A DNA stretch of 44,138 nt, from sequence record MN927226.1. One strand, given 5' to 3'. Below the pieces are notes generated by a model. It did no database searches, was not told the DNA's origin, and was given only the letters and a program-made list of their open reading frames with translations. This DNA comes from Escherichia phage vB_EcoS_XY2. A program made the position numbers and the translations under genes. Positions 975 to 41,856 of this stretch are shown here, one piece after another; position 1 is the stretch's first letter, and every line of letters begins with the position of its first letter.

Positions 975-1005
975 ACTACGTCTCTCCTCTCGTTTGTGTA
1001 AATGA

Positions 1006-1034
1006 ATAGTAGCCTATTCTATCTTAGTGTGCAA
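1006..1034 (-). promoter_or_regulatory. sigma70-like promoter TTGCAC-N17-TACTAT with GAATAG-N4-CTATTC dyad
   Basis: Reverse complement reads TTGCAC, 17-bp spacer, TACTAT upstream of CDS 426..974; perfect inverted repeat 1004-1019. Confidence 0.45.
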
Positions 1035-2426: not shown

Positions 2427-2460
2427 AACCACCACTCCTCTGTCTCGTTTCGATAAGTGA

Positions 2461-2489
2461 ATAGTATCCTATTATATTGGGGTGTGCAA
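2461..2489 (-). promoter_or_regulatory. early promoter TTGCAC-N17-TACTAT (leftward operon)
   Basis: Reverse complement cttgcacaccccaatataataggatactattcac; near-identical to modules at 25334 and 34320. Confidence 0.5.
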
Positions 2490-2561
2490 GAGAATAGTTA
2501 CGTTGCCGTTGTGATTCTTCGGGGAGGGTTGTGCCTTTATTCTTATTACTTGGTAACTAAA

Positions 2562-2581
2562 GGGCAGGCTTAAGCCTGCCC
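2562..2581. terminator. perfect hairpin GGGCAGGC-TTAA-GCCTGCCC in divergent control region
   Basis: 8-bp perfect stem with 4-nt loop read directly. Confidence 0.4.
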
Positions 2582-2718
2582 AATAATCGTTACATTTTTA
2601 CGGTTGCGAATCTACGGCACATTAAGAAACAGTAGATATTTCAGCGGGTTACTTCTTTAAATGAGATTTAGATACACTTATCCTTAAACCCCAAGGCAAG
2701 CATCTCAGCTGTCTGGGA

Positions 2719-2756
2719 GGGGTTGACGAATCCCTCGGGGAGGGTTCGTCAACTCC
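2719..2756. repeat. 38-bp nested near-perfect palindrome
   Basis: GTTGACGAA/TTCGTCAAC outer arms around CCCTC-GGG-GAGGG inner arms. Confidence 0.6.
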
Positions 2757-2847
2757 GTAATATATACAAGTCCCAAAACCATTATACAAACATGTGTCAA
2801 GAACTTTCAATAACATTTTTGTAAAGATTAAATATTACAGAGATTGG

Positions 2848-2876
2848 TTGCTTTTACATTCCCGCTATCCTATACT
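2848..2876 (+). promoter_or_regulatory. sigma70-like promoter TTGCTT-N17-TATACT for rightward operon
   Basis: Hexamers read directly, about 30 bp upstream of CDS 2908. Confidence 0.4.
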
Positions 2877-2907
2877 CAGTTTCACCAAACAAACAGGAGA
2901 TATAAAA

Positions 2908-3090
2908 ATGTCGCATTATATGACGCAGAATGAAGTAGCTGAACGTATCGGGGTGACACGTCAGACCATTAATAACTGGTTGCGCAGCGGCAAATTCCCT
3001 GACTGCTGTATTAAGGTTATGGGCCGCCGTTTACCGGGAACATTTGACCGTAATAAAGTCGAAGCATGGATTAAGGAGAACGTGAAATGA
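2908..3090 (+). CDS. small HTH DNA-binding protein (AlpA/excisionase-like, 60 aa)
   Basis: MSHYMTQNEVAERIGVTRQTINNWLRSGKFP; CAGGAGA RBS 7 nt upstream; track start 2794 lacks RBS. Confidence 0.6.
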   Translation: MSHYMTQNEVAERIGVTRQTINNWLRSGKFPDCCIKVMGRRLPGTFDRNKVEAWIKENVK

Positions 3091-3377
3091 AAGGCGTAAT
3101 TTTCCACAATAAAGCAGAAAACGAAGTGTATATGGTTCACTCCGTGGCCGGAGAGTTCGCTTTATGCTTCAATATCTCTTGCCATCTTGATACCTACCGG
3201 CCTTTCTGCGTAGAAACAGAAATGAAGCTAATTAGCTTACGCCAACTAAGCACCATGTCGGCATCGCTTAACGTAAGAGATAATCTCGAGTATATCGACT
3301 TCTATTTCGGCGATGATTTGGTCGAGGAATATTTTGAAGAGTATAAAAATTTGCTGGAAGGGTTGGCTAAACGGTAA
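3087..3377 (+). CDS. hypothetical protein (96 aa)
   Basis: ORF track; ATGA overlap with stop of 2908..3090. Confidence 0.6.
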   Translation: MKGVIFHNKAENEVYMVHSVAGEFALCFNISCHLDTYRPFCVETEMKLISLRQLSTMSASLNVRDNLEYIDFYFGDDLVEEYFEEYKNLLEGLAKR

Positions 3378-3446
3378 AAAGAAACCCCAACGCAAGAACG
3401 TCGGGGTCAAAGCACAAATCATCAAAGTAAGCACAAGGATTATACA

Positions 3447-3575
3447 ATGACGAAGTTAATAGTTCCACAGCTGCGCCGACAGAAACACGGCGCCGATTTC
3501 TTCGCGCCGGTAAAGATGAACCGCGCAATGCGCCGTATGCAGGAAGCCTTAGAACGTGCGGAGAAAAAGAAATGA
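3447..3575 (+). CDS. small basic protein (42 aa)
   Basis: Hand-translated MTKLIVPQLRRQKHGADFFAPVKMNRAMRRMQEALERAEKKK; stop overlaps primase ATG (ATGA). Confidence 0.4.
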   Translation: MTKLIVPQLRRQKHGADFFAPVKMNRAMRRMQEALERAEKKK

Positions 3576-5794
3576 ATATTGTTTTTGCAACGCTGCGTAA
3601 CACATTCGATAAAAACCCTGTAGCGCGTGAAATGCCGCTGGAGCAGTTTGTCGAGTATGTCTGCGATACATCGAAGCGTTTATCCGTGGACCCGTCATGG
3701 ACTAAGGAAGAGTACGACGCTGCCAAGATTAAACAGAAAGCTATTGCGCCTGTTGGTGGTCGCCGTAAAAACGCTATCCTGGAAGACAGTGTGGTTAAGT
3801 TCGATTTCGACCATCTCAACCGTACTCAGTACCGCGACCTGACACGCAAATTCAAGAACGCGCCGTTCTTCAATATTCTGCACACAACGGCATCGCATCA
3901 GCACGCATGTAAAAATGGAGATTACGCTTTCCGCGTTCTGGTTCCAGCTCGCACGCCGTTTAACTCTAACGACGCGTGGATGGTGCAACGTGCTATTTGT
4001 GCAGAGTTAGAAATAGACGAAGCGTTGCGCGACCACTGCACAGAAGACGGCAACCGCCTTATCTACCTGCCGCATAAAGAGTCGAAGATAACGGTTACAG
4101 AAGGGCGTGTTATCCGTGCTGAGCGGTACATCAAGAAAGCCGAAGAGATGGGGTTGCGTAAGCGTGAGGCTAAAACACTTGCCGCCGATGAGTATGGGCT
4201 TAACGCTGATATAGCGCATTTCTGCGAAGCCGAGCTTGGCCTTGACGCTTTATCTTCCGGGCGCGGGTACGAAGTGCCATGCCCTAACGAACATCTGCAT
4301 ACAGGCAAGGGCTCCACCAGCATAATGCTCGACGGTAAAGAAGTGCGCTTTGTCTGCCAGCATACAAACAACGGCGCTTGCACCGAGCTTAACCGTAGGC
4401 AGCATTTGGCCCTGCGTATGTGTGGCCTACCCGACGAGCTTAACATAGATAAGCAACCTATCAGCATTAACAGCATTCGTGCGGCTCTGCCTGATTTACC
4501 GGAAGAAGAGATTGAAGAACTACACCGCACAGAGAACGAGGACCCAGTAACTTGCAGCCTCGACGACCTGGAAGACGATGCGGAATCAGAGGAGGACGAG
4601 TTACCAGAACCGGTAAAGGCTGATTTCGTCGTTGAAGGGTACATGCCGTCGGATTGTATCTGGGATATCGTCGGGGAATCTGGCACGTACAAATCGTTCT
4701 ATACGCTGGGGATGATGTACCTCAGCGCCGCCGGGTACAGGTTTGCGGGGGCGGATACCCAGCGTTGCCACCATTTCTATATTGATGGTGAGGGTGGCGC
4801 AGCTACACGCACCCGTATTGATGCACTAGCGGCTAAATATGGCGGGGAAGGTAAAGATTATGTACACGTCATCGATATGGGCGAAGTCGGCAAACTTAAA
4901 AGCCTGATTAAGTTAATGCGCGAAACTGCTGGCGACGAGCCAATTGGCATGGTTGCGTTCGACACCCTTAACCAGACCCTGGCACTGACGATTGATAAGT
5001 TCGACGAGAACAGTTCATCAACAGCAATCGGCATGGGTAAAGTTATCGCCATTCTGAAAGAAGTACGCGATGCAACTAAAGCCGCAGTAGGCGTTGTCCA
5101 CCATACGCCGAAGGGTGGAAAGAAAGCACGCGGCAGTGGGGCGCTGTATGCGGGTGTTGACGTGGAACTGACAATCGAACGTGCAACCGACCGTCAAATA
5201 AACGTATACCACTCGAAATTTAAGCACGGTCCTCAACAGAAAACGGTTGGCATGGTGCTGGAGTCTGTGCAGTTCCGCGAAGCTCCGCCGCCGAAAGAGT
5301 ACCGTGCGGTTGAGTTCCTGGGGGGCACAGAAGAATACGGCACAATCGTAAACCTGGACCTTCCTGAACCACACAAGGCGCTTGTGTTGATGCCGTGGGG
5401 TTTCGAGCCGTTCAAAACTGACGAGGAGAAAGAGCGGGAAGAAGGGTTGACGAAAGAAGGTAAGCAAAAAGTAAAGGAAGAAGTTAAACGCGGCAGGGAT
5501 GAAGTAAGGAAGGAGTCAATACTTTCGGCACTGGAAGACCTGCAACAGTCAGATGACACAGGTCGCGGTTTTACTCAGCAGCAGATAGTGGCTCGTTCCG
5601 GTGACTTCTCTGTGACTAACACCCATCTTGATAAAATGTTGAAAGATGGAGAACTAATGCTTGGTTGCGATGCTAACGGCGAAGTAGTACCGAGAACATA
5701 TCGTATACCCGAAAGAATAGGGGATAGATTAAGGCCGAAGACACTATACGAACCAAATGAGATGCTGGTGGTGACAGAGGAGGATTTGGAATAG
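3572..5794 (+). CDS. DNA primase/helicase-like replication protein (740 aa)
   Basis: Cys/His cluster CPNEHLHTGKGS...CQHTNNGAC; Walker-A-like GESGTYKS; position at head of replication module. Confidence 0.75.
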   Translation: MNIVFATLRNTFDKNPVAREMPLEQFVEYVCDTSKRLSVDPSWTKEEYDAAKIKQKAIAPVGGRRKNAILEDSVVKFDFDHLNRTQYRDLTRKFKNAPFFNILHTTASHQHACKNGDYAFRVLVPARTPFNSNDAWMVQRAICAELEIDEALRDHCTEDGNRLIYLPHKESKITVTEGRVIRAERYIKKAEEMGLRKREAKTLAADEYGLNADIAHFCEAELGLDALSSGRGYEVPCPNEHLHTGKGSTSIMLDGKEVRFVCQHTNNGACTELNRRQHLALRMCGLPDELNIDKQPISINSIRAALPDLPEEEIEELHRTENEDPVTCSLDDLEDDAESEEDELPEPVKADFVVEGYMPSDCIWDIVGESGTYKSFYTLGMMYLSAAGYRFAGADTQRCHHFYIDGEGGAATRTRIDALAAKYGGEGKDYVHVIDMGEVGKLKSLIKLMRETAGDEPIGMVAFDTLNQTLALTIDKFDENSSSTAIGMGKVIAILKEVRDATKAAVGVVHHTPKGGKKARGSGALYAGVDVELTIERATDRQINVYHSKFKHGPQQKTVGMVLESVQFREAPPPKEYRAVEFLGGTEEYGTIVNLDLPEPHKALVLMPWGFEPFKTDEEKEREEGLTKEGKQKVKEEVKRGRDEVRKESILSALEDLQQSDDTGRGFTQQQIVARSGDFSVTNTHLDKMLKDGELMLGCDANGEVVPRTYRIPERIGDRLRPKTLYEPNEMLVVTEEDLE

Positions 5795-5803
5795 GTAAAA
5801 AGA

Positions 5804-5822
5804 AAGGGGCTTTAAGCCCCTT
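5804..5822. terminator. hairpin AAGGGGC-tttaa-GCCCCTT between converging genes
   Basis: Stem-loop read directly; T-run follows on minus strand. Confidence 0.5.
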
Positions 5823-6027
5823 CACCTAACGCCAGCCACTTGGCGTCTACTTCCAGAACTTCCGCCAGCTTGAACAGCGTCGCCGGCCGGACGTCCTGAG
5901 TTACCCCGAGCGCAAGCTGGTTAATCGCGCCCTGGGAAACGCCAGCCAGGACCGCCAGACGGCGCTGGGAGATGCCGAGTTCTTTACGGCGTTGTTCTAC
6001 GCGGATACCTAGTTCAGATGGTTGCAT
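5812..6027 (-). CDS. XRE/Cro-CI-type HTH transcriptional regulator (71 aa)
   Basis: LGISQRRLAVLAGVSQGAINQLALG HTH motif; solo minus-strand gene divergent from 6152 operon. Confidence 0.75.
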   Translation of the reverse strand: MQPSELGIRVEQRRKELGISQRRLAVLAGVSQGAINQLALGVTQDVRPATLFKLAEVLEVDAKWLALGEGA

Positions 6028-6091
6028 GTCAATTACTCCTTAGTCAGTTGATATGTGAATAGTACCATATTAATTATTTTAGAAAAGCCCA

Positions 6092-6120
6092 TTGACATGT
6101 GAATAGTTCGCTATTATAGT
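6092..6120 (+). promoter_or_regulatory. sigma70 promoter TTGACA-N17-TATAGT with GAATAG-N4-CTATTA dyad in spacer
   Basis: Consensus -35, 17-bp spacer; dyad 6101-6116; second degenerate box 6057-6072. Confidence 0.6.
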
Positions 6121-6151
6121 TAACCCATACCAAACGAGAGGAGAGAAACAA

Positions 6152-6652
6152 ATGTTAGAGAAATTCTTAGTATTGCTGGAACGTTTCGTAGTTGCACATG
6201 AACTGATTGCCGCGAACAGTGCGAAACAAGTTGTTCAGGTTGCCGCGCCGCTGGAAGTAGAGACTGTATCGTACACCAAAGAAGCGGTAGCTGAGTGCGC
6301 TGAAGAAGCAACAAAAGAAATCCCGGTAGAAGGTGAAGACATCGTTGACACTAAACCGGCAGAAGAAGAGAAGCCAAAACGCAAGCCGCGTAAAGCTAAA
6401 GTAGAGGAAACGACGCCAGAGCCGGAAGAAGAGAAAGAAGAAGTAGACTATAAGTCTCTGCGCGACCAGATTCAGGCTATCGACGATGCAATTAACGAAG
6501 GTCCGAGCGATGCCGCGTGCGATGATTCTGATGAACTGCTGGAAGAGTTCACAGGTAAGAAAATGAAGATTGCAGCGATTAAAGACGAAGACCTGGCTGA
6601 ATACCTGGAACGCTTGACAGCAATCAAGAACAAGTATTTCGAAGAAGAATAA
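6152..6652 (+). CDS. highly acidic early protein (166 aa)
   Basis: ORF track; strong RBS; E/D-rich composition. Confidence 0.7.
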   Translation: MLEKFLVLLERFVVAHELIAANSAKQVVQVAAPLEVETVSYTKEAVAECAEEATKEIPVEGEDIVDTKPAEEEKPKRKPRKAKVEETTPEPEEEKEEVDYKSLRDQIQAIDDAINEGPSDAACDDSDELLEEFTGKKMKIAAIKDEDLAEYLERLTAIKNKYFEEE

Positions 6653-6659
6653 CTATCAG

Positions 6660-6678
6660 GCGGCCTTCGGGCCGCTTT
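6660..6678 (+). terminator. hairpin GCGGCC-TTCG-GGCCGC then TTT
   Basis: Read directly after stop of 6152..6652. Confidence 0.5.
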
Positions 6679-6695
6679 AACGGAGGGGCGGAAAT

Positions 6696-6974
6696 ATGAT
6701 TTACCAACTCTACCGCGCCGTAGACAGGCGGGATAACACAGAGGCGTTGTGGCTGTTGCGTGCGCCGTCCGGTGCACACCAGATGGAAGAGATGGCGTAC
6801 TTAGGCAAAGTACCGCGTCCTAAAGATATAGGTCGTCACGTGTCGCGGATTAAACGCACGACATTCGCCAAGCCCGACTTTTATGTCTTCGAGTCGATGT
6901 ATGGATGGGCCTTACATTGCGACCACAAGACACGGCATTTAATTGACCAGTGGGAGAGCAGAGCATGGTTTTAA
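6696..6974 (+). CDS. hypothetical protein (92 aa)
   Basis: ORF track; GGAGGGG RBS. Confidence 0.6.
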   Translation: MIYQLYRAVDRRDNTEALWLLRAPSGAHQMEEMAYLGKVPRPKDIGRHVSRIKRTTFAKPDFYVFESMYGWALHCDHKTRHLIDQWESRAWF

Positions 6975-8206
6975 AGGAACGCGGCGGAAATAACGATGTA
7001 CACGCCTTACTGTCGCCGTCTGGGGCTAAAAAGTGGCTTAGCTGCGCGGCATCACTGGCCTGTGAAAAAGATATTCCTAACACGTCAGGTAAAGCTGCGG
7101 TATTAGGCACAGCAATGCACACCATAGCTGAGATGCACCTTAACCAGTACATCAAAGGTACTGCGCTGCCGTTAGAGCGCGAAGTAGGCGCTTACGTGCT
7201 GGATGAGGGTAAAGGCCAGATTAAGGCGCTAATCAGTCCGATGAAAGGTGCTGTACTGATTACGGCGGATATGATTGAGCAGGTGCGCAAGTACACCGAC
7301 TACTGCAAAGCGATTATAGATGTAGCGACTTACGCCAAGCTGGAAATGCGCGTCAATCTTACTGAGGTATTGCATCCGGGGTATGAAGGCGTTGAGACGT
7401 TCGGAACCGCTGACATTGTTGCCGTTCAGGAACTGGCTAACACCGATGAGCACATGCTAATCATCGGCGACCTTAAAACCGGGCGACATCGTGTCGAAGC
7501 GAAAGAAAACAAGCAGCTTATGCTTTACGCTCTCGGTGTTTATCGCCGACTCAAGAGACGTTATAACATAACAGTTGTTCGTCTGGTAATCTTCCAGCCG
7601 TACACTGGCGGCGCGTCGGAGTGGGACATCTCGGTTGAAGGCCTTGAACTGTTCACTAAGTTCGCACAGAAACGCGCGCTGTTAGCTATCGATGCGTATT
7701 TCCGTGGGAAGAAGAACCTGAAAGCGTCGGACTTCAAGCCGTCGGTCGATGGTTGTCAGTGGTGTCGGTTCTCAGAACAGTGCGCCGCGCGTACAAAAAC
7801 CGTCAACTCTGTGCTGGCGGAAGAACTGGAGGACGATTTTGCGCTTGAGCTTACGCCAGAGCAACTCGTAGCTGAGTATGAGAAGTTGCCGCTGTTGCGC
7901 CAGCACATCGACAAGGTTGAGAAAGCTATGGCCGTCGCATTGCATTCCGGTAAGAAGGTGCCGGGGTACAAGCTGGTTGAAGGACGCCAGGGTAATCGTG
8001 CGTGGAAAGACGCAGAGAAAGTAGCAGAACTCTACGGCGACAAGCTGACTAAAGAAGTGCTCATGTCACCTACCGAAGCTGTTAAAGTGATACCGGAAGA
8101 AGAACTGAAAGACTTCATCACACGTAAGCCGGGTGCACCATGTGTTGCAACGGCAGACGACAAGCGTCCTGAGTGGGATCAGGTAACAGAGGAGGATTTG
8201 GAATGA
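6965..8206 (+). CDS. PD-(D/E)XK nuclease, DUF2800/Cas4-like, with C-terminal Cys cluster
   Basis: GDLKTGRHRVEAKENKQLMLYALGVY nuclease core and CQWCRFSEQC; ATG at 6965 after GGGAGAG. Confidence 0.7.
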   Translation: MVLKERGGNNDVHALLSPSGAKKWLSCAASLACEKDIPNTSGKAAVLGTAMHTIAEMHLNQYIKGTALPLEREVGAYVLDEGKGQIKALISPMKGAVLITADMIEQVRKYTDYCKAIIDVATYAKLEMRVNLTEVLHPGYEGVETFGTADIVAVQELANTDEHMLIIGDLKTGRHRVEAKENKQLMLYALGVYRRLKRRYNITVVRLVIFQPYTGGASEWDISVEGLELFTKFAQKRALLAIDAYFRGKKNLKASDFKPSVDGCQWCRFSEQCAARTKTVNSVLAEELEDDFALELTPEQLVAEYEKLPLLRQHIDKVEKAMAVALHSGKKVPGYKLVEGRQGNRAWKDAEKVAELYGDKLTKEVLMSPTEAVKVIPEEELKDFITRKPGAPCVATADDKRPEWDQVTEEDLE

Positions 8207-8376
8207 TGGTTTATATTCTCACGCGGTATCACCGCCGATATTCTATTCAAGAACTTGATATTGTTTCTGTTCACGCTAAACGCACCGACGCCGACAAAAT
8301 TGCAGAAGAGAAGAACTCGAAGCATGAGGCGGTGCAGCCCTATATTTATAAGGTAGTTCCGAAGAAACTTAAATAA
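8203..8376 (+). CDS. hypothetical protein (57 aa)
   Basis: ATGA overlap with nuclease stop; GAGGAGGA RBS lies in nuclease 3' end. Confidence 0.5.
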   Translation: MMVYILTRYHRRYSIQELDIVSVHAKRTDADKIAEEKNSKHEAVQPYIYKVVPKKLK

Positions 8377-8380
8377 AGTG

Positions 8381-8409
8381 TTGACACCTGAATAGTTAGC
8401 TATTATAGT
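8381..8409 (+). promoter_or_regulatory. sigma70 promoter TTGACA-N17-TATAGT with GAATAG-N4-CTATTA dyad
   Basis: Same architecture as 6092-6120; upstream of CDS 8464. Confidence 0.6.
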
Positions 8410-8463
8410 TCTAATCACTGACCGGGCAGCTTCCCGGAGTAAACTGAAAAGCGAGAAATCACG

Positions 8464-9090
8464 ATGGGTATTAAACTGAATCTGCGTAAAGTAAACACTG
8501 CATGGGTTAACGTATTTGAACGTGAAAAAGACCGTGAAAACGATGATGGCTCAATCACTAAAGGCCAGTACAGCGCGACTATCATCCTGCCGTATGACCA
8601 TGCTCAAATCGATGCACTCTACGGCACCGTTTACGCTGTAGTTGAAGAAGCGTTAGGCGCAGCCGCTGCCGAGAAATGGATGAAGTCCAACTACGGTGAA
8701 GGTAAGCACATGGATAAATGCGCGATTAAAGACATTGCCGAGCGCGACAATCCGTTTGAAGACTTCCCGGAAGGCTTCTACTTCAAAGCGAAGGCACAGA
8801 AACAGCCGCTGATTGTAACCTCTAAAAAAGGTGAGACTCAGGTAGAGCAGGACTTCAACGTAGACGGCGAACAGATTGAAGGTGAACAGGTTTACAGCGG
8901 ATGCTTAGCTAACGTAAGCGTTGAAATCTGGTTCAGCCAGAAATACAAAGTCCTCGGCGTTAACCTGCTGGCGATTAAATACGTTGGCGAAGGCAAAGCG
9001 TTCGGCGGTTCTAAAGTCGCTGCGAGCGTCAATGACCTGGAAGACGACGAAGAAGATGAAGCACCGCGCCGCGAACGTCGCCGCCGCTAA
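8464..9090 (+). CDS. DUF2815-like putative ssDNA-binding protein
   Basis: ORF track; sits between DUF2800 nuclease and DNA polymerase; acidic tail DLEDDEEDE. Confidence 0.55.
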   Translation: MGIKLNLRKVNTAWVNVFEREKDRENDDGSITKGQYSATIILPYDHAQIDALYGTVYAVVEEALGAAAAEKWMKSNYGEGKHMDKCAIKDIAERDNPFEDFPEGFYFKAKAQKQPLIVTSKKGETQVEQDFNVDGEQIEGEQVYSGCLANVSVEIWFSQKYKVLGVNLLAIKYVGEGKAFGGSKVAASVNDLEDDEEDEAPRRERRRR

Positions 9091-9149: not shown

Positions 9150-11351
9150 ATGAGTTACCTGTTCTTAGACTTTGAAACATTCTCAGAAGCCGATTTGAAG
9201 AAAGTCGGTTCTTACGCTTACGCCGAACACCCGTCAACCGAAGTGCTTATCTGTACATATGCTTTTGACGACGAACCTGTGCGGGTATGGGATTGCACCG
9301 ACGGCAGCGACATGCCGGGGGATTTACACCGCGCACTGCGCCGCCTTGTTAAGCCCAACAGCCGCATCAAGATGGTGTGGCACAACGGTGGACTTTTCGA
9401 TCGCCTAATCATGAAACACTGCTGGGACTTTGATATTCCGGTAAGTAACACCATTGATACTATGATTTGGGCGTTCCGCCACGCGCTGCCGGGTTCTCTT
9501 GATGCGCTGTGCGAAGTGCTGGGCGTGTCTGCAGACAACGCGAAAGATAAACGCGGCAAGGCTCTGATTAAGCGTTTCTCTAAACCGACGCCGAAGAACT
9601 ACAAAATCCGCCGCTACACCGCAGAAACTCACCCTGACGAGTGGGCGATGTTCATCAGGTACGCCGTGAGCGACATCACTGCGATGCGTGAAGTCTTCCA
9701 TAAGCTGCCGCGTTGGGGTAACTCCGAGTTCGAAGACCGTGTACTGGAACTTGACCAGTTAATCAACGACCGCGGATTTAAGGTTGACGTCGCACTGGCG
9801 GAAGCCGCGATTGAAGCCGTAGAGAAGCACAAGGCACAGTTACAGGAAGAAGCTCAACGTAAATACGGCGGCTCGCTTACCGGTAAAGACTTCCTTCCGA
9901 TTCTGCGTGAACTTTCGCCCGCGCACCGCATACACAATGCACAGAAGTCGACGCTTAACGACCTGTTGGCAGATGATGATTTACCGGACGACGCCCGGAT
10001 GATTATCGAAATGCGCCTCGGGGCCGCGTCAACAGCGTCAACGAAATATACCCCGCTGCTGTTGGGCCGCTCGTCGGACGACCGCCGTCGTGGTTGCTTG
10101 CAGTACGGCGGAGCGAAACGTACTCTGCGATGGGCGGGTAAAGGATTCCAGCCGCAGAACCTGGCGCGAGGTTACTATCACGATGATGAACTGGATAAAG
10201 GCATTTCAGCGTTACTTAAGGGTCGAGCGCATCGCCGTTTTGATGTAGCCAAGCTAACAGCATCTACGGTTCGTAGCTGCATTATCCCGGAAGCGGGGTA
10301 TAAGTTTGTCGTTGCCGATTACTCTAACGTTGAAGGCCGTGGTTTAGCGTGGCTGGCCGGAGAAGAAACCGCGCTCGATACGTTCCGCGCCGGACTGGAT
10401 ATTTACTGCGTAACCGCAGGTAAGATGTTCGGCATGGACCCCGATGACATTAAGAAAAACTTCAAGGAAATCAGACAGATAGGCAAGGCTTGCGAGCTTG
10501 GCCTCGGCTATGAAGGCGGCGTCGGAGCGTTCGTTACGTTCGCCAAAAACTTAGGTCTTGACCTTATTGAGATGGCAAAAACAATGGACGGTACATTCCC
10601 CGACCACATCTGGTCAGCCACCGCGAGAGGATATGAATGGGCGCGCATCCAGGAAGCCAAGCGCCCCCCGCATCCAGGTGAAAAGGACGACAGGCCATCA
10701 TATATTCTTGATAAAAAAGTATGGCGTACTTGTGACGCTATCAAGCGTATGTGGCGCGAGTCACACCCGGAAACAGTAGCGTTCTGGCGCGACCTTAAAG
10801 ATGGAATTTTAGCCGCTGTGCGTAATCCTGGTCGTGAATTTTGGGCGGGGGCACACTTGCGCAGAAATGGGGAAAGGGCTATCCGCATATGGCGTACTGT
10901 AGAATTTGATTCATCCGGTAGGAAGGTTCCGGGTTGGTGGTTGTGTATGGAGTTGCCGTCTGGCCGTATCCTCTCGTATCCGGGAATCGGGGTTAGTGTG
11001 ACAAAGGAAACAGATGAAGACGGACGGGTGAACACGAATGTGCGAATCAAGTATCAAGGTGAAAACCAGTTAACCCGCCAATGGACTACCCTGTACACAC
11101 ACGGCGGCAAAGCCTGCGAAAACATTGTTCAGGCGCTGTGCCGGGATTTACTCGCATATGCGATGATTAAGGTTGAGGATGGCGGGTATCCCATCGTGCT
11201 TTCGGTACACGATGAACTGGTGTGCGAAACTCCAGATACGCCGGAATACAGTGTGGCTGAACTGGAACGATTGATGTGCGCGTTGCCTGAGTGGGCAGAA
11301 GGCTTCCCTCTTGTAGCGGAAGGTAGCGAAATGTACAGATATGCTAAATGA
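9150..11351 (+). CDS. family-A DNA polymerase with N-terminal 3'-5' exonuclease domain
   Basis: N-terminal FLDFETFS exonuclease motif; 733-aa ORF. Confidence 0.8.
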   Translation: MSYLFLDFETFSEADLKKVGSYAYAEHPSTEVLICTYAFDDEPVRVWDCTDGSDMPGDLHRALRRLVKPNSRIKMVWHNGGLFDRLIMKHCWDFDIPVSNTIDTMIWAFRHALPGSLDALCEVLGVSADNAKDKRGKALIKRFSKPTPKNYKIRRYTAETHPDEWAMFIRYAVSDITAMREVFHKLPRWGNSEFEDRVLELDQLINDRGFKVDVALAEAAIEAVEKHKAQLQEEAQRKYGGSLTGKDFLPILRELSPAHRIHNAQKSTLNDLLADDDLPDDARMIIEMRLGAASTASTKYTPLLLGRSSDDRRRGCLQYGGAKRTLRWAGKGFQPQNLARGYYHDDELDKGISALLKGRAHRRFDVAKLTASTVRSCIIPEAGYKFVVADYSNVEGRGLAWLAGEETALDTFRAGLDIYCVTAGKMFGMDPDDIKKNFKEIRQIGKACELGLGYEGGVGAFVTFAKNLGLDLIEMAKTMDGTFPDHIWSATARGYEWARIQEAKRPPHPGEKDDRPSYILDKKVWRTCDAIKRMWRESHPETVAFWRDLKDGILAAVRNPGREFWAGAHLRRNGERAIRIWRTVEFDSSGRKVPGWWLCMELPSGRILSYPGIGVSVTKETDEDGRVNTNVRIKYQGENQLTRQWTTLYTHGGKACENIVQALCRDLLAYAMIKVEDGGYPIVLSVHDELVCETPDTPEYSVAELERLMCALPEWAEGFPLVAEGSEMYRYAK

Positions 11352-11364
11352 TGAGGGGCGATTT

Positions 11365-11862
11365 ATGAGAGATTTAATTAATTGGCATGACCATTTCTAC
11401 TACGAACCTGACACGGGGAAGATACGATGGAAGTATTCCCCGAGACACAGTATAAACGCCGGAGACGAAGCCGGTAGCCCAAGTAAGAGGGGCTACATCT
11501 GTATCGTCGTCAGAGGGGTTAGTTACAGGGCTAATCGCATCGCGTGGGAGATGTATAACAATGACCGTTTAGGGCCTGATGATGAGGTAGACCATATAAA
11601 TCACATCCTGGATGATAATCGTGCATGCAACCTTCGGAAAGTATCCCGTACTGATAATAACCGAAACGCATCTCGCAGAAAAGATAACAAGTCAGGCCTC
11701 ACTGGTGTGCACTGGAACGCACGGGCGGATAAATGGAAAGCAGGGATATTCGTTGACGGTAAACTTATATTCCTGGGCCACCATGACAATATATTTGACG
11801 CGGCTTGTGCCCGGAAATCTGCGATTGTTCGCTACGGCTTTCATGAGAATCACGGAGGTTAG
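11365..11862 (+). CDS. HNH homing endonuclease with AP2-like DNA-binding domain
   Basis: VDHINHILDDNRACNLR HNH motif; GVHWNARADKWKAGIFVDGK AP2-like; GAGGGG RBS before ATG 11365. Confidence 0.7.
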   Translation: MRDLINWHDHFYYEPDTGKIRWKYSPRHSINAGDEAGSPSKRGYICIVVRGVSYRANRIAWEMYNNDRLGPDDEVDHINHILDDNRACNLRKVSRTDNNRNASRRKDNKSGLTGVHWNARADKWKAGIFVDGKLIFLGHHDNIFDAACARKSAIVRYGFHENHGG

Positions 11863-12230: not shown

Positions 12231-12559
12231 CTAAAGAGGGCCGCATCCAGAAATACGCAAAAGAGCGATTCGAGGCCATTGGTGGCCTCGTTCGTAAACT
12301 TTCCTACGAAGGACGTTCAGGCGCTCCTGACCTGCTGGCAATTCTACCCGGCGGCATCGTCTGGTTCGTCGAGGTGAAGAAAGACGAAAACACTAAGCCA
12401 GACCCGCACCAGCTACGGGAACACGAGCGTATACGTAAACGTGGCGCAAATGTTTTTGTCGTTGGTTCGATAAAACAGATTGACACCCTAATAGCAGACT
12501 ATTATAGTAAGCACATACCCCAACAATATAAGGAATTTAGAAATGAAACACGAATATGA
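12227..12559 (+). CDS. VRR-NUC domain nuclease
   Basis: GAPDLLAILPGGIVWFVEVKK core read as VRR-NUC. Confidence 0.7.
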   Translation: MTKEGRIQKYAKERFEAIGGLVRKLSYEGRSGAPDLLAILPGGIVWFVEVKKDENTKPDPHQLREHERIRKRGANVFVVGSIKQIDTLIADYYSKHIPQQYKEFRNETRI

Positions 12560-15083: not shown

Positions 15084-15103
15084 AAGGCCCCAAACGGGGC
15101 CTT
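15084..15103. terminator. bidirectional terminator AAGGCCCC-aaac-GGGGCCTT
   Basis: Perfect 8-bp stem between converging plus module and tailspike gene. Confidence 0.7.
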
Positions 15104-25333: not shown

Positions 25334-25362
25334 TTGCGCGCCCCAATATAATAGGGTACTAT
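25334..25362 (+). promoter_or_regulatory. early-type promoter TTGCGC-N17-TACTAT for plus-strand island
   Basis: ttgcgcgccccaatataatagggtactattca; near-identical to 34320-34350. Confidence 0.55.
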
Positions 25363-25390
25363 TCACCAGTAACTTACTGAGGGTATAATT

Positions 25391-34044: not shown

Positions 34045-34251
34045 GCTAGTCCTTATCATTTAAACATAGAAACGGCGTAATCTCAGTAAACCAGTTACTT
34101 TTTACACAAGCAATAGAGTATGGCCCTTCCGAACGCGTCAGCGTAACTACACTCAGGACTTACGTCCAGCTCCGTTACCTGCCCGCGCCGCGGTCGCTTG
34201 TTCATACTTCACAAGCTCAGGTGGAGCTTAGCACATTTTTAGTGAAAAGTC

Positions 34252-34267
34252 AACTATTCGAATAGTT
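34252..34267. repeat. perfect 16-bp palindrome AACTATTCGAATAGTT
   Basis: Read directly, about 55 bp upstream of promoter 34320. Confidence 0.6.
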
Positions 34268-34319: not shown

Positions 34320-34348
34320 TTGCGCACCCCAATATAATAGGGTACTAT
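34320..34348 (+). promoter_or_regulatory. early-type promoter TTGCGC-N17-TACTAT for DnaN-like gene
   Basis: ttgcgcaccccaatataatagggtactatcca; near-identical to 25334-25364. Confidence 0.55.
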
Positions 34349-34375
34349 CCAGTTAACTTAAACAGGAGATGAGAA

Positions 34376-34901: not shown

Positions 34902-34921
34902 AAGGCCCCTTACGGGGCCTT
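34902..34921. terminator. bidirectional terminator AAGGCCCC-ttac-GGGGCCTT
   Basis: Perfect 8-bp stem right after stop of 34376..34897. Confidence 0.7.
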
Positions 34922-35386: not shown

Positions 35387-36462
35387 TAATCCCCTTTCAG
35401 ATAATCAGCAACACGTTTATCGAGTTCCGCCATCTGCTTAAGCGTGAGCGGATTCCCGAAACCATCTACAGATATTACGCGAAACTCTTCCGGCGATATA
35501 CCGCTGTTACGGAAAATCTTACCGCGAACAGGACCGAGCGCCTGGTCCTGAAACCATGCTGGTTGTTGTTTCAGGAACTCGTAATAGGTGGTGTCCGCGC
35601 TTACCTGAGTACCGCCGTCCGCACCCTTAGCCGCACGTTTTGCGCCTTTATCAAGGAAGTCGAACTCTGAACTGATTACCGGTGCAGTGGTACTTCGGCA
35701 ATTAGGATGGGCTGGTGGCATCGGACCTTTACCGATTTCCCACGTCATTCCGTCTCTGGCCCTGCAAATCGTGCTGGTACGGCTGTCCAAAGTTGACACC
35801 CACTCATATTTCTCGATGATGTCGTCGTTCTGGCGGTACGTCTCGTTACGGGCCTCGTTGGATACGTGGGACAGCGCGGTGCGGATTACCGTAGTCGCGT
35901 TACGTTCTGAGATGTCGGCTAGCCCACCAGCGCCAACAACATTCTTAACAATCTGCCGTGTGGTTTGACCTTGCACAAAGCCCATCTTAACTCCAGTTAC
36001 AAGACGTGCTACTTCCGTTTCACCCCAGCCGTCCATCAGCTTAGTGAAATCAACGGGCTTGTCGCTCAATGATAATGGTTGAAACTCGGCAGCGGCCCAT
36101 ACCTGCTCAGCGGTAGGCGTAACAAATTCCGCGTCTACGTTGGCGGTCAGTGTCTTTACGTTCCACTCAGCCTCGTACGCCGCCAGTTCCTTAAGGTCGT
36201 CTGTTAGCTTTGTTTGCCAGTCACCCGTAATACCGGTTAGTGCTTCTTCCAGGTCGCGTAACAGTTTATTCAGTCGCGCAGTGCTGCGACCGTCGTCACC
36301 GAATAACAGCACCTGCCGTTTGATTTCATCCCTTATCTCCTGAATGAACGGCGTGAGGTCTTTCACTTCACCGGATGCGGTGCGTTGCAGCCATATCTGA
36401 TGGCTGATTAGGGATGTAAGTAAGCTCATAGATAAACCCTGTGGCGCTAAAGTTAATAGCAT
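35386..36462 (-). CDS. head morphogenesis / minor head protein
   Basis: 358-aa ORF immediately after portal gene. Confidence 0.6.
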   Translation of the reverse strand: MLLTLAPQGLSMSLLTSLISHQIWLQRTASGEVKDLTPFIQEIRDEIKRQVLLFGDDGRSTARLNKLLRDLEEALTGITGDWQTKLTDDLKELAAYEAEWNVKTLTANVDAEFVTPTAEQVWAAAEFQPLSLSDKPVDFTKLMDGWGETEVARLVTGVKMGFVQGQTTRQIVKNVVGAGGLADISERNATTVIRTALSHVSNEARNETYRQNDDIIEKYEWVSTLDSRTSTICRARDGMTWEIGKGPMPPAHPNCRSTTAPVISSEFDFLDKGAKRAAKGADGGTQVSADTTYYEFLKQQPAWFQDQALGPVRGKIFRNSGISPEEFRVISVDGFGNPLTLKQMAELDKRVADYLKGD

Positions 36463-36498
36463 ACTATAAGAAAGCCCCTTTCGGGGCTATAGGTGAAC

Positions 36499-39890: not shown

Positions 39891-40046
39891 TTATTCTGTT
39901 ATATCGCCGCCGTCTACCAGTGCGATTGGTATTCTCACTTCACCGTTGAATGTTTCGGCATACCAGAACTTTTCACACTGCGTTACGCTGAAAACATCGA
40001 GTTCTGACGTAGCCCCTGTTTTCCAGTAGATAGTTAACTTTTTCAT
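39891..40046 (-). CDS. small hypothetical protein (51 aa)
   Basis: Hand-translated MKKLTIYWKTGATSELDVFSVTQCEKFWYAETFNGEVRIPIALVDGGDITE; strong RBS AAGAGGAGAGTGGAGA. Confidence 0.45.
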   Translation of the reverse strand: MKKLTIYWKTGATSELDVFSVTQCEKFWYAETFNGEVRIPIALVDGGDITE

Positions 40047-40279
40047 TCTCCACTCTCCTCTTTAGCAATACGTTGCTCAGTTTTAGTGATACCACGGCGC
40101 GTGAATAACACCGGGCTAGTCTTAACGTGCGTCATCAGACGATTGTTATAAATTACGTGGCGCTCACAATCAACGTCTTTACTGTACTTAGCAATCGTCA
40201 TTTCGTTGATACCGGTTTGTCGGCATGTCTCCGCCATCGTACCAAATTCTTTAATCAGGTTAGGAATGCTGGTAATCAT
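40043..40279 (-). CDS. small protein with HTH-like segment (78 aa)
   Basis: ORF track frame; ATG 40279 forms ATGA with upstream stop. Confidence 0.5.
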   Translation of the reverse strand: MITSIPNLIKEFGTMAETCRQTGINEMTIAKYSKDVDCERHVIYNNRLMTHVKTSPVLFTRRGITKTEQRIAKEESGE

Positions 40280-40446
40280 CCTAAGAAATTCCTCGTTGTC
40301 CACATCGCATTCGGATATTTGTTATCGCGGTCCTGCACCACGGCGACCATGTTACCACGTTGCACCAGGCAGAAGTGACGCTGTTGCTCGCCGTTGTAAC
40401 GGCGCCAGATTGCTTCTTCGATTGCTGCGTTGATGTCGCTGAACAT
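40276..40446 (-). CDS. small hypothetical protein (56 aa)
   Basis: Hand-translated MFSDINAAIEEAIWRRYNGEQQRHFCLVQRGNMVAVVQDRDNKYPNAMWTTRNFLG. Confidence 0.45.
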   Translation of the reverse strand: MFSDINAAIEEAIWRRYNGEQQRHFCLVQRGNMVAVVQDRDNKYPNAMWTTRNFLG

Positions 40447-41806: not shown

Positions 41807-41835
41807 AATATAATAGGGTCATAGATAATAGTCAA
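41807..41835 (-). promoter_or_regulatory. sigma70-like promoter TTGACT-N17-TATATT
   Basis: Read on minus strand; spacer contains CCCTATTA element. Confidence 0.45.
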
Positions 41836-41856
41836 CTAGTCATCGCAGAAAATAGA

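What the first reader, a model, noticed from the sequence alone, without database searches (positions are those of the whole stretch)
6057..6120. GAATAG-N4-CTATT(A/C) dyad embedded in promoters, with a small XRE-type HTH gene divergently placed
The dyad occurs in the spacer of TTGACA-N17-TATAGT promoters at 6101-6116 and 8390-8405, in degenerate form at 6057-6072, as a perfect copy at 1004-1019 (GAATAG-tagc-CTATTC), inside the ~33-bp promoter module, and as a head-to-head 16-bp palindrome at 34252-34267. The only classical repressor-like gene, the 71-aa XRE HTH protein at 5812..6027, is transcribed divergently from the box-containing region 6028-6151. The genome has no integrase, so this looks like an operator/regulator circuit for early gene timing rather than lysogeny.
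Basis: partly seen in the sequence, partly recalled or inferred. Interest (0 to 1): 0.45.

Follow-up and report, generated by a model that had tools for sequence, protein, structure and literature searches.

The report
Cro-like repressor operators in phage promoters
A 16-bp inverted repeat sits inside nearly every recognisable host-type promoter of this virulent E. coli phage (a Kagunavirus) and is most likely the binding site of the phage's small 434-Cro-like repressor: a familiar kind of circuit, not tested by experiment here, whose sites were earlier mislabelled as phage-polymerase promoters.

Summary
The window is a complete Kagunavirus genome. GAATAG-N4-CTATT(A/C) has 5 exact sites (0.02 expected) and 10 sites with at most 1 mismatch; 9 are intergenic. 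An unbiased enumeration ranks it the top dyad in this genome, in other Kagunavirus genomes and in Jerseyvirus.

The dyad lies in promoter cores in three registers: in the spacer, over the -10, or over the -35. A fixed RNA polymerase contact would not do this. Across about 38 relatives, arm positions outside the -35/-10 hexamers are as invariant as the hexamers. The central N4 and the rest of the spacer vary freely (Fisher p=3e-9).

The 71-aa protein is a 434-Cro-like HTH_3 protein by sequence and predicted fold. It is a monocistronic unit divergent from a replication operon, with a perfect and a conserved imperfect operator 44 bp apart.

Its recognition helix varies in Kagunavirus while the arms never change, so it is a poor candidate.

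Best explanation (about 0.6): a Cro-like global repressor with graded operators. Binding and repression are inferred, not shown. The case is a new member of a known kind, of modest interest.

The parts
5812..6027 (-). Gene for the 71-aa XRE/434-Cro-like HTH protein, the proposed repressor
   Evidence: Pfam HTH_3 E=2e-12. phmmer to 434 Cro (1zug/2cro/3cro) E=2e-6 over residues 6-68. AF2 model has five helices, pLDDT 81.7. Foldseek top hit is 2cro, 42% identity, TM 0.74-0.81.
5803..5823 (.). Terminator hairpin directly after the XRE stop codon and after the convergent helicase-primase gene. It makes the XRE gene a monocistronic unit.
   Evidence: Terminator-like site GAAGGGGCTTAAAGCCCCTTT followed by a T-run on the - strand.
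6057..6072 (.). O_L, a weak operator: GAATAGTACCATATTA. It has one arm mismatch that is conserved in all Kagunavirus relatives. It overlaps the XRE gene's own promoter or leader.
   Evidence: The arms GAATAG....ATATTA are identical in 38/38 related loci.
6076..6103 (-). Candidate leftward promoter P_L for the XRE gene: TTCACA-16-TAAAAT. The alternative is an extended -10, TGgTACTAT, at 6059-6067 inside O_L.
   Evidence: Consensus scan, 10/12. No transcription start data; which of the two is used is not known.
6092..6120 (+). P_R, type A promoter TTGACA-17-TATAGT, driving the replication/recombination operon from 6152.
   Evidence: 11/12 consensus match.
6101..6116 (.). O_R, a perfect operator: GAATAGTTCGCTATTA. 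It lies in the P_R spacer, reaches 2 nt into the -10, and touches the P_L -35.
   Evidence: Arms invariant in 38/38 loci while N4 and the 3 nt after the -35 vary.
8381..8409 (+). Type A promoter TTGACA-17-TATAGT with operator 8390-8405, upstream of the ssDNA-binding protein and DNA polymerase genes.
12480..12508 (+). Type A promoter TTGACA-17-TATAGT with operator 12489-12504 (TAATAGCAGACTATTA). It lies inside the 3' end of the VRR-NUC ORF, upstream of the methylase and helicase genes.
1004..1034 (-). Type B promoter TTGCAC-17-TACTAT. The perfect palindromic operator 1004-1019 covers the -10.
2459..2489 (-). Type B promoter TTGCAC-17-TACTAT with operator 2459-2474. It is the first promoter of the leftward small-gene/lysis/structural direction.
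25334..25364 (+). Type B promoter TTGCGC-17-TACTAT with operator 25349-25364. It drives the opposite-strand cassette (phosphoesterase/'DNA repair exonuclease') inside the tail module.
34320..34350 (+). Type B promoter TTGCGC-17-TACTAT with operator 34335-34350. This phage has GGATAG in one arm; the site is perfect in Bas70 and EC3-1.
34225..34267 (-). Type C promoter TTGACT(34253-34248)-17-(TGc)TAAGCT(34230-34225). The imperfect dyad 34244-34259 overlaps the -35. The adjoining half-site forms the 16-bp palindrome 34252-34267. The promoter lies upstream of the spanin/scaffold/capsid block.
   Evidence: Sequence; conserved in Bas70 and EC3-1. The promoter assignment was made by eye.
41807..41841 (-). 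Type C promoter TTGACT-17-TATATT. The imperfect dyad 41826-41841 (GACTAGTTGACTATTA) overlaps the -35. It lies just after a terminator and upstream of small genes and the terminase.
   Evidence: Conserved in Bas70, L041 and Jersey.
2908..3090 (+). Second small HTH gene (60 aa, HTH_17/excisionase-like), the rival reader. Its own promoter, TTGCTT-17-TATACT at 2848-2876, has no dyad.
   Evidence: Pfam HTH_17 E=1.6e-8. Sequence.

Best explanation
The 16-bp dyad (G/T)AATAG-N4-CTATT(A/C) is the operator of the phage's 71-aa 434-Cro-like XRE protein. The protein is proposed to bind as a dimer, one HTH per arm. The arm centres are 10 bp apart, so both arms face the same side of the helix.

Every operator overlaps a core promoter element of a host sigma-70-type promoter: the spacer plus the edge of the -10 (type A), the -10 (type B) or the -35 (type C). 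A bound dimer would therefore shut RNA polymerase out.

The gene is a monocistronic unit, divergent from the replication operon. A perfect operator (O_R) lies in P_R and touches the -35 of the candidate P_L. A conserved one-mismatch operator (O_L) lies 44 bp away over the gene's own promoter or leader.

The proposed sequence of events is as follows. As the protein accumulates, it first turns down the strong replication and small-gene promoters, which carry perfect operators. At higher concentration it turns down its own promoter and the two promoters in front of late gene blocks, which carry conserved imperfect operators.

Shown here:
- the sites and their statistics;
- their promoter context;
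- their pattern of conservation;
- the protein's family and fold.

Inferred:
- binding, and dimeric binding;
- repression;
- the order in which operators fill.
For: 1. **The dyad is real and non-random.**
   - It is far above chance.
   - It is the top dyad by unbiased enumeration in the window, Bas70, Jersey, 36 IMG/VR Kagunavirus loci, L041 and 10 Jerseyvirus loci.

2. **It sits in several registers.** It starts 3 nt after the -35 (type A), 6 nt after it (Jersey 16956) or 9-10 nt after it (type B), or it overlaps the -35 (type C). It is therefore not a fixed RNA polymerase contact.

3. **Its conservation pattern is that of a protein-binding site.**
   - Arm columns outside the hexamers: 6/46 variable, minor-allele fraction 0.006.
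   - Hexamer-only columns: 6/46 variable.
   - N4 plus the rest of the spacer: 32/43 variable, minor-allele fractions 0.130 (N4) and 0.119 (rest of spacer). Fisher p=3e-9.
   - The same pattern holds in Jerseyvirus: no arm changes, while N4 and the flanks vary.

4. **The protein is Cro-like.** HTH_3, 434 Cro E=2e-6 over the full length with the same 71-aa size, a five-helix model, and 2cro as the top fold match.

5. **The local architecture fits.** Two operators lie between the gene and the divergent promoter, and a terminator follows the gene.

6. **The arms track the XRE protein, not HTH_17.**
   - The XRE recognition helix is identical in 40/41 Kagunavirus loci, and the arms are identical with it.
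   - HTH_17 has 5 recognition-helix variants in the same loci with no change in the arms.
   - Eleven Kagunavirus loci carry the Jersey-type HTH_17 helix (the same eight residues, TRRTLNNW) yet keep the Kagunavirus GAATAG arm.

7. **XRE is the shared candidate across genera.**
   - Cornellvirus lacks HTH_17.
   - Cornellvirus still has a related 16-bp element, TAWTAS-N4-STAWTA, in promoters at equivalent genome positions, and it has an XRE homologue.
   - XRE is therefore the only HTH found here in all three genera.

8. **A host factor is unlikely.** Jerseyvirus and Cornellvirus both infect Salmonella but carry different elements.

9. **It is not a structural hairpin.** The hairpin is negligible (-1.8 to -3.2 kcal/mol), and the dyad lies upstream of the predicted transcript starts.
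Against: - There is no binding or expression experiment, here or in the papers found.
- The XRE recognition helices of Kagunavirus (SQGAINQ) and Jerseyvirus (SQSLITH) differ at four positions, yet the arm core AATAG is the same. By the positions that read bases in 434 Cro, Jerseyvirus resembles Cornellvirus (TQSAISH) more than Kagunavirus does. Specificity therefore does not map simply onto the helix.
- The Cornellvirus elements are partly non-palindromic.
- The -10/-35 assignments of types B and C rest on consensus only. Type B also contains a perfect TATAAT that would give another register.
- A repressor with sites on the promoters before late genes is odd for a purely lytic programme.
- Kagunavirus RNA-seq (PMC12645636) classes a '_008 helix-turn-helix domain' gene as early and a '_004 specific DNA binding' gene as middle. 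From gene order I infer that _008 is HTH_17 and _004 is XRE. That would fit a late-accumulating repressor, but the gene identities were not verified.
Confidence: 0.6

Rival explanations
1. The reader and the sites are the same, but the role differs. The XRE protein would be an immunity-type global repressor. By silencing almost all promoters it would allow a non-integrated carrier or pseudolysogenic state with superinfection immunity. In logic this resembles the dispersed C1 operators of plasmid-prophage P1.
For: - Operators lie on essentially all recognisable promoters, including those before late blocks.
- A Jerseyvirus (SGP-C) was reported to give turbid plaques, immune 'lysogens' and possibly episomal DNA (PMC8790156).
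- One complete Kagunavirus genome is deposited as a 44,086-bp circular 'plasmid' of a blood E. coli isolate (CP088689.1).
Against: - Relatives carry no integrase, partition or plasmid-replication-control genes.
- The group is consistently described as strictly lytic, with short latency (e.g. PMC6627115).
- No match was found in 5,426 complete RefSeq E. coli genomes.
- No Jerseyvirus record was found among the plasmids.
- The protein has no C-terminal oligomerisation or S24 domain.
- The single plasmid record could be contamination or phage carry-over.
- The SGP-C evidence is weak.
Confidence: 0.13
2. A different phage protein reads the dyad: the 60-aa HTH_17/excisionase-like protein, the NinH-like protein, or an unrecognised one. 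This could include an activator made from the only dyad-less promoter, which would make the dyad promoters 'middle' class.
For: - HTH_17 exists and is expressed from a promoter without the dyad.
- It is present in Kagunavirus and Jerseyvirus, which share the AATAG dyad, and absent from Cornellvirus, whose element differs.
- RNA-seq of a Kagunavirus puts an 'HTH domain' gene among only 4 early genes and most other genes later.
Against: - The HTH_17 recognition helix varies (5 variants, including EC3-1 with 4 substitutions) while every arm is unchanged.
- Excisionase-type winged-helix proteins typically bind direct repeats as monomers or filaments, not 6-N4-6 palindromes (general knowledge).
- The type A promoters are 11/12 consensus with 17-bp spacing and should not need an activator.
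- Cornellvirus keeps dyad-like elements without HTH_17.
- The NinH match is below the Pfam cut-off.
Confidence: 0.12
3. No dedicated factor is involved. The dyad would be a by-product of promoter architecture: A/T-rich -10-like hexamers on both strands, or a spacer sequence that tunes promoter strength, copied when promoters duplicated.
For: - Each arm resembles a -10 (TACTAT, TATAGT; TATAAT on the other strand).
- In every class one arm overlaps a hexamer.
- The type B promoters share a longer module of about 33 bp, consistent with duplication.
Against: - Arm positions that lie in the spacer are as invariant as the hexamers, while neighbouring spacer bases vary.
- The symmetry is kept in three registers and across two genera whose remaining promoter sequence differs: TTGCACACCCCAATA against TTGACATAACCAAACA.
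- Orthologous sites differ in N4 but never in the arms.
- Duplication cannot explain purifying selection of this shape.
Confidence: 0.1
4. A host DNA-binding protein binds the dyad.
For: The hosts are all enterobacteria. The sequence TGTGA before two of the sites resembles a CRP half-site.
Against: - The second CRP half-site is missing (2-3 of 5 bases).
- No E. coli regulator that I could recall has a 6-N4-6 GAATAG/CTATTC site (from memory, not tested).
- Jerseyvirus and Cornellvirus share the host Salmonella but differ in the element.
- The full promoter-operator module occurs only in Guernseyvirinae-type contigs among 2.9 million viral contigs.
Confidence: 0.03

Closest known systems
Phage 434 Cro and its OR operators (lambdoid Cro/cI-type HTH_3 repressors; also P22 c2)
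   Same: - Same size (71 aa).
- About 41% identity over the whole length, and the same five-helix fold.
- A conserved Gln at the first position of the recognition helix.
- A short dyad operator with half-sites one helical turn apart.
- Operators placed between a divergent gene pair and overlapping the promoter cores.
- One strong and one weaker site near the gene.
   Different: - No partner cI repressor, no OR1-3/OL triplets, and no lysogeny module.
- The operators are 16 bp with a different half-site (kAATAG instead of ACAA).
- The sites are not confined to one control region. They are dispersed over at least 10 promoters of a virulent siphovirus.
P1 C1 repressor with operators dispersed over the plasmid-prophage genome
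   Same: One repressor and many operators, each at a promoter, scattered around a non-integrating phage genome.
   Different: - The resemblance is recalled from general knowledge and was not tested here.
- C1 is an unrelated, larger protein and its operators are asymmetric.
- P1 has plasmid replication and partition functions and antirepressors.
- None of these is present here.
Controller (C) proteins of restriction-modification systems (C.AhdI, C.BclI)
   Same: Small XRE dimers with the same fold (ranks 2-5). They bind paired palindromic boxes in their own promoter and act as a concentration-dependent timing switch.
   Different: C proteins sit in and regulate an R-M operon. Here the gene is not linked to the phage methylase (12731-13528), and the sites are genome-wide.
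'Phage-specific promoter' motif reported by PHIRE for Kagunavirus fBC-Eco01 (tgAATAGTa-ccTATTat-T) and Jerseyvirus SGP-C (TAATAGTACCCTATTATGTT)
   Same: It is the same sequence element, so the repeat itself was already noticed in the literature (PMC9825357; PMC8790156).
   Different: - One of those papers (PMC9825357) read it as promoters for a phage-encoded RNA polymerase; the other (PMC8790156) called it a putative regulatory element.
- No phage RNA polymerase gene is annotated in these genomes.
- Each copy lies within a sigma-70-type -35/-10 pair.
- The symmetry and the link to the Cro-like gene were not noted.

Membership tests
Cro/cI-type XRE (Pfam HTH_3) phage repressor, 434 Cro-like | HTH_3 helix-turn-helix domain | tested here: met
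   PF01381 E=2.3e-12, 47.2 bits against a cut-off of 23. PHROG transcriptional regulator/repressor families.
Cro/cI-type XRE (Pfam HTH_3) phage repressor, 434 Cro-like | Five-helix all-alpha fold of 434 Cro / repressor N-domain | tested here: met
   Single-sequence AF2 model, pLDDT 81.7, helices 5-17, 21-28, 32-39, 48-57 and 62-66. Foldseek top hit 2cro, TM 0.74/0.81. phmmer to 1zug E=2e-6.
Cro/cI-type XRE (Pfam HTH_3) phage repressor, 434 Cro-like | Binds as a dimer to a dyad-symmetric operator with half-sites about 10 bp apart | not testable with these tools
   The site geometry (6-N4-6, arm centres 10 bp apart) and the invariant arms with a free centre are compatible. Binding was not measured.
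Cro/cI-type XRE (Pfam HTH_3) phage repressor, 434 Cro-like | Gene adjacent to its operators, which overlap divergent promoters (autoregulation) | tested here: met
   O_L 6057-6072 and O_R 6101-6116 lie between the gene start (6027) and the divergent operon (6152), overlapping P_R and both P_L candidates.
Lambdoid cI/Cro bistable lysis-lysogeny switch | A partner cI-type repressor (HTH plus S24 peptidase or oligomerisation domain) and an integration or maintenance module | tested here: not met
   The closest annotated genomes carry no integrase or cI. The only other HTH proteins found in the window are HTH_17 and a weak NinH match. Not every window ORF was scanned.
Bacterial sigma-70 promoters | -35 and -10 hexamers at 16-18 bp spacing upstream of an operon | tested here: met
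   Type A promoters match 11/12 and are the best-scoring + strand promoter-like sites in the window; one - strand site without a dyad, TTGAAA-18-TATAAT at 2810-2781, also scores 11/12. Type C at 41835-41807 matches 10/12. Type B (TTGCRC-17-TACTAT) was assigned by eye and. Transcription starts were not tested.
Phage-RNA-polymerase promoters (the interpretation in PMC9825357) | A phage-encoded RNA polymerase that recognises the motif | tested here: not met
   No RNA polymerase gene in the annotated relatives Bas70, Jersey, EC3-1 or Shemara. The motif always sits within a sigma-70-type hexamer pair.
Structured RNA / transcription terminator hairpin | A stable stem-loop that is transcribed | tested here: not met
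   Stems of -1.8 to -3.2 kcal/mol. No Rfam family in the window. The dyads lie upstream of the predicted transcript starts.

The most novel reading that the evidence does not exclude
Guernseyvirinae phages are treated as strictly virulent and used for therapy and biocontrol. They may nevertheless carry a one-protein, dispersed-operator immunity system. In that reading the Cro-like repressor can silence almost all promoters of the incoming genome. This would permit a non-integrated carrier or pseudolysogenic state with superinfection immunity, without an integrase or a cI partner.
Probability: 0.12. Interest if true: 0.6.

Novelty: new member of a known kind. Interest (0 to 1): 0.35.

Why it matters
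- **A testable regulon.** It gives a large, much-used group of E. coli and Salmonella phages (more than 450 genomes; the BASEL phages Bas70-76; many biocontrol candidates) a concrete map of about 10 promoters, one candidate regulator and a graded operator set.
- **A literature correction.** It corrects published readings of the motif as phage-polymerase promoters.
- **Safety.** It bears on the recurring question of what the 'repressor' gene in these supposedly lytic phages does. The answer would be either turning down its own transcription, which is harmless, or supporting immunity and a carrier state, which matters for therapy.
- **Engineering parts.** The near-consensus promoters with a 16-bp operator would also make compact, orthogonal repressible parts.

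Tried and rejected
- **CRP site.** TGTGA precedes two dyads, but the second half-site matches only 2-3 of 5 bases.
- **ArgR and Fur boxes.** Considered from memory only; the half-site spacing does not fit. Not tested.
- **RNA or DNA hairpin.** The stems are too weak and there is no Rfam hit.
- **Phage-polymerase promoter.** No such gene is annotated.
  - It looked attractive, because it is present in Kagunavirus and Jerseyvirus and absent from Cornellvirus.
  - It was weakened by the helix variants that coexist with unchanged arms.
- **Kagunavirus RNA-seq paper.** I tried to settle when the two HTH genes are expressed. The phage gene table is not in the held supplements, so the gene identities remain an inference from gene order.
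- **Salmonella phage MB78 papers.** I recalled this as a possibly related, experimentally studied phage. Nothing usable is in the library.
- **Cornellvirus as a clean covariation test.**
  - Its element is related and enriched (5 sites with at most 1 mismatch against 0.15 expected).
  - It is partly non-palindromic, so the test is inconclusive.
- **Prophage or plasmid copies.** One plasmid-labelled record was found. None was found in RefSeq E. coli genomes, and no Jerseyvirus record was found among plasmids.
Full report
**What the window is.** The 44,138-bp window is a complete genome of a Kagunavirus (Guernseyvirinae; siphoviruses of E. coli). Positions 5000-9000 are 96% identical to Escherichia phages DUEC01 and Bas70. 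They match 452 phage records, mostly Kagunavirus and the sister genus Jerseyvirus of Salmonella. I transferred the Bas70 annotation to obtain a gene map:
- Replication genes run rightward from 6152 to about 15,080.
- A short rightward operon (2908-5794) encodes a small HTH_17 protein and the helicase-primase.
- Small genes, lysis genes, terminase and structural genes run leftward from 2435 through the origin of the window down to about 15,100.
- Two short cassettes interrupt the leftward genes on the + strand.

**Check of the observation.**
- The exact pattern GAATAG-N4-CTATTM occurs at 1004, 2459, 6101, 8390 and 25349, against 0.02 expected; no shuffle reached this.
- With at most one mismatch the list grows by 6057, 12489, 34244, 34335 and 41826.
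- I enumerated every 5-mer inverted repeat with gaps of 0-10. AATAG-N4-CTATT ranks first in the window, in Bas70 and in phage Jersey, ahead of the GC-rich terminator hairpins.
- It also ranks first in 36 Kagunavirus, 1 intermediate and 10 Jerseyvirus loci from IMG/VR.
- Nine of the ten sites lie in the 7% of the genome that is non-coding (P=4e-10). The tenth lies in the 3' end of an ORF, directly upstream of the next gene.

**Anatomy.** The dyad always lies inside a sigma-70-type promoter, but in three different registers.
- **Type A** is TTGACA-nnn-GAATAGnnnnCTAT|TATAGT, at 6092-6120, 8381-8409 and 12480-12508.
  - These three are 11/12 matches to consensus and the best-scoring + strand promoter-like sites in the window; the only other 11/12 site is a - strand one without a dyad (2810-2781).
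  - The dyad fills the spacer.
  - They drive replication and recombination genes.
- **Type B** is TTGCRC-N9-TAATAGGnTACTATTC, at 1004, 2459, 25349 and 34335.
  - The dyad covers the presumed -10, TACTAT.
  - They drive the leftward small-gene operons and the two + strand cassettes.
- **Type C** has the -35 hexamer TTGACT formed by the N4 and the start of one arm.
  - The sites are 41826-41841 (TTGACT-17-TATATT) and 34244-34259 (TTGACT-17-TGcTAAGCT).
  - Each follows a terminator and precedes a block of late genes.
- In phage Jersey a fourth register occurs, with the dyad 6 nt after the -35.
- The only other convincing promoter, TTGCTT-17-TATACT at 2848-2876 in front of the HTH_17/helicase-primase operon, has no dyad. 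This holds in the window and in Jersey.

**Comparative evidence that the dyad is a protein-binding site.** I aligned six orthologous sites from about 38 Kagunavirus genomes.
- The two arms have a minor-allele fraction of 0.3-0.6%. The central N4 has 8.9% and the flanks 4-5%.
- I then separated the columns by role, as in the table below (sequences are related, but the contrast is within the same alignments).

| Column class | Variable columns | Minor-allele fraction |
|---|---|---|
| Arm positions outside the -35/-10 hexamers | 6 of 46 | 0.006 |
| Hexamer-only positions | 6 of 46 | 0.013 |
| Central N4 | 14 of 16 | 0.130 |
| Rest of the spacer | 18 of 27 | 0.119 |

- Arm positions against N4 plus the rest of the spacer (32 of 43 variable) give Fisher p=3e-9.
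- Jerseyvirus repeats the pattern: no arm change in any unique sequence, while N4 and the flanks vary.
- Between the genera the rest of the promoter differs. For example, the spacer ACCCCAATA of Kagunavirus type B is TAACCAAACA in Jersey, yet the dyad persists.
- The full type A promoter-operator string occurs in 46 stretches of the IMG/VR viral contigs. All are on contigs of this phage group.
- As a hairpin the dyad is negligible. No Rfam family matches anywhere in the window.

**Who reads it.** The protein encoded at 5812-6027(-) is Pfam HTH_3.
- Its closest solved relative is 434 Cro. Both are 71 aa, with E=2e-6 and alignment over residues 6-68.
- A single-sequence AlphaFold2 model (pLDDT 81.7) has the five helices of that fold.
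- Foldseek ranks 2cro first, followed by R-M controller proteins, SinR, the 434 repressor and P22 c2.

2908-3090(+) encodes a 60-aa HTH_17/excisionase-like protein, and 40043-40303(-) gives a sub-threshold NinH match.

HTH_17 is a serious rival on distribution. It is about 80% identical between Kagunavirus and Jerseyvirus, which share the dyad. It is absent from Cornellvirus, whose element differs. Three observations favour XRE:
- In phage EC3-1 the XRE protein and all 11 dyads are as in the window, but HTH_17 is only 70% identical, with four substitutions in its recognition helix.
- Across 41 Kagunavirus loci the XRE recognition helix is identical in 40. HTH_17 shows five helix variants, all with unchanged arms. 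The 11 loci with the Jersey-type HTH_17 helix keep the Kagunavirus-specific GAATAG arm, so the one arm difference between the genera (G or T at the outer base) follows the XRE clade.
- Cornellvirus, without HTH_17, still has an enriched 16-bp element, TAWTAS-N4-STAWTA, in promoters at equivalent positions, together with an XRE homologue of 41-43% identity.

Against a simple picture, the recognition helices of Kagunavirus (SQGAINQ) and Jerseyvirus (SQSLITH) differ while the arm core does not. The Cornellvirus elements are also partly asymmetric.

The XRE gene is monocistronic. A terminator hairpin at 5803-5823 follows it and also ends the convergent helicase-primase gene. The upstream region contains:
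- O_L (6057-6072), with one arm mismatch that is identical in all 38 relatives.
- O_R (6101-6116), a perfect site centred 44 bp from O_L.
- P_R (6092-6120), whose spacer and -10 edge are covered by O_R.

Two leftward promoters are possible:
- TTCACA-16-TAAAAT (6103-6076, 10/12). Its -35 abuts P_R's -35 and overlaps O_R by 3 bp, which puts O_L at about +4.5.
- An extended -10, TGgTACTAT (6067-6059), inside O_L. This corresponds to the TTGCGT-17-TACTAT arrangement that I read in Jersey.

Either way O_R blocks P_R and O_L blocks the gene's own promoter. With the first P_L, O_R would be centred near -39.5, a position from which lambda cI activates PRM. I note this only as a possibility.

**Logic of the regulon (inferred).**
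- Perfect operators sit on the replication and small-gene promoters.
- Conserved one-mismatch operators sit on the regulator's own promoter and on both type C promoters.
- At 41826 the mismatch is kept in Kagunavirus but lies in the other arm in Jerseyvirus. This suggests selection for a weakened site there.

This is the pattern expected if operators fill in order of affinity as the protein accumulates. The replication and accessory genes would be turned down first, then the regulator itself and late transcription.

**Literature.** The repeat has been seen before but not interpreted this way.
- PHIRE runs reported 'tgAATAGTa-ccTATTat-T' in Kagunavirus fBC-Eco01 as seven promoters for a phage-encoded RNA polymerase (PMC9825357).
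- They reported 'TAATAGTACCCTATTATGTT' in Jerseyvirus SGP-C as a regulatory element (PMC8790156).
- No such polymerase is annotated in these genomes.
- The SGP-C paper also claims turbid plaques, immune lysogens and possibly episomal DNA.
- A Kagunavirus RNA-seq study lists only four early genes, including an 'HTH domain' gene _008. From gene order this is probably HTH_17, with XRE (_004) classed as middle. I could not verify the identities.
- I found no binding or genetic study of the protein.

**Rivals.** These are:
- the same reader acting as an immunity or carrier-state repressor;
- a promoter by-product without any factor;
- a host factor.

The evidence for and against each is set out in the rival-explanations section. 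For the carrier-state reading there is one hint: a complete Kagunavirus genome deposited as a circular plasmid of a clinical E. coli isolate. Against it, there are no copies in 5,426 complete E. coli genomes and no Jerseyvirus record among the plasmids.

**Verdict.** In kind it is a Cro/XRE repressor-operator system in a virulent phage, so it is a new member of a known kind. It has modest interest, plus a low-probability but more interesting immunity or carrier-state reading.

Noticed in passing
Plasmid record CP088689.1 (locus L086), compared with window 3500-9000: A 44,086-bp circular 'plasmid', pC16EC0033-2, of a human-blood E. coli isolate is a complete Kagunavirus genome (92.7% identity). 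No copy was found in 5,426 complete RefSeq E. coli genomes. It could reflect a carrier state, or phage carried over in the culture.
   Followed up: partly
window 2436-2907: A 470-bp gene-poor gap lies between the divergent promoters P2459(-) and the HTH_17 promoter (2848-2876). It holds a perfect 20-bp palindrome (2562-2581), a 15-nt inverted repeat (2719-2733 / 2742-2756, GGGGTTGACGAATCC / GGGTTCGTCAACTCC), a repeated ATYCYTCGGGGAGGGTT box (2514-2530 and 2730-2746) and a lone extra GAATAG half-site (2491-2496). Its function is unknown; it might be an origin or another control region.
   Followed up: no
window 1020-1034, 2475-2489, 25334-25348, 34320-34334: Type B promoters share a conserved block, TTGCRCRCCCCAATA, upstream of the dyad at 2475-2489, 25334-25348 and 34320-34334 in Kagunavirus; the P1004 copy keeps TTGCAC but has ACTAAGATA in place of CCCCAATA. 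The spacer part (CCCCAATA) is not conserved in Jerseyvirus. It also creates a perfect TATAAT overlapping the dyad's upstream arm, so the true -10 of these promoters is uncertain.
   Followed up: partly
window 9110, 15084-15103, 27145, 34902-34921: A family of near-identical terminator hairpins, AAGGCCCC-N4-GGGGCCTT, recurs at operon ends. At least two of them read as terminators on both strands.
   Followed up: no
window 11341-11862 (+): An HNH endonuclease ORF (Pfam HNH_3) lies directly after the DNA polymerase gene. Bas70 has no counterpart, so it is probably a mobile homing-type insertion.
   Followed up: no
window 36454-36469: A dyad-like sequence, TAATAGCATACTATAA, abuts the terminator hairpin 36473-36488 between the portal and head-morphogenesis genes. 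It is conserved in Bas70 and EC3-1. I could not assign a promoter to it.
   Followed up: partly
L003 (FSL SP-031) 14066, 26544, 33280, 14681, 10988; L004 (Shemara) 8263, 14981, 38486, 31401: Cornellvirus promoters carry a different 16-bp element, TAWTAS-N4-STAWTA (5 sites with at most 1 mismatch against 0.15 expected in SP-031). Some copies are palindromic and some are not. These phages lack the HTH_17 gene and place the helicase-primase gene on the same strand as the XRE gene.
   Followed up: partly
PMC9825357 and PMC8790156 (literature): Published genome papers list this dyad as a PHIRE 'phage promoter' consensus. One attributes it to a phage-encoded RNA polymerase, although no such gene is annotated in these genomes. 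The other uses the XRE gene as evidence that a Jerseyvirus is temperate.
   Followed up: yes
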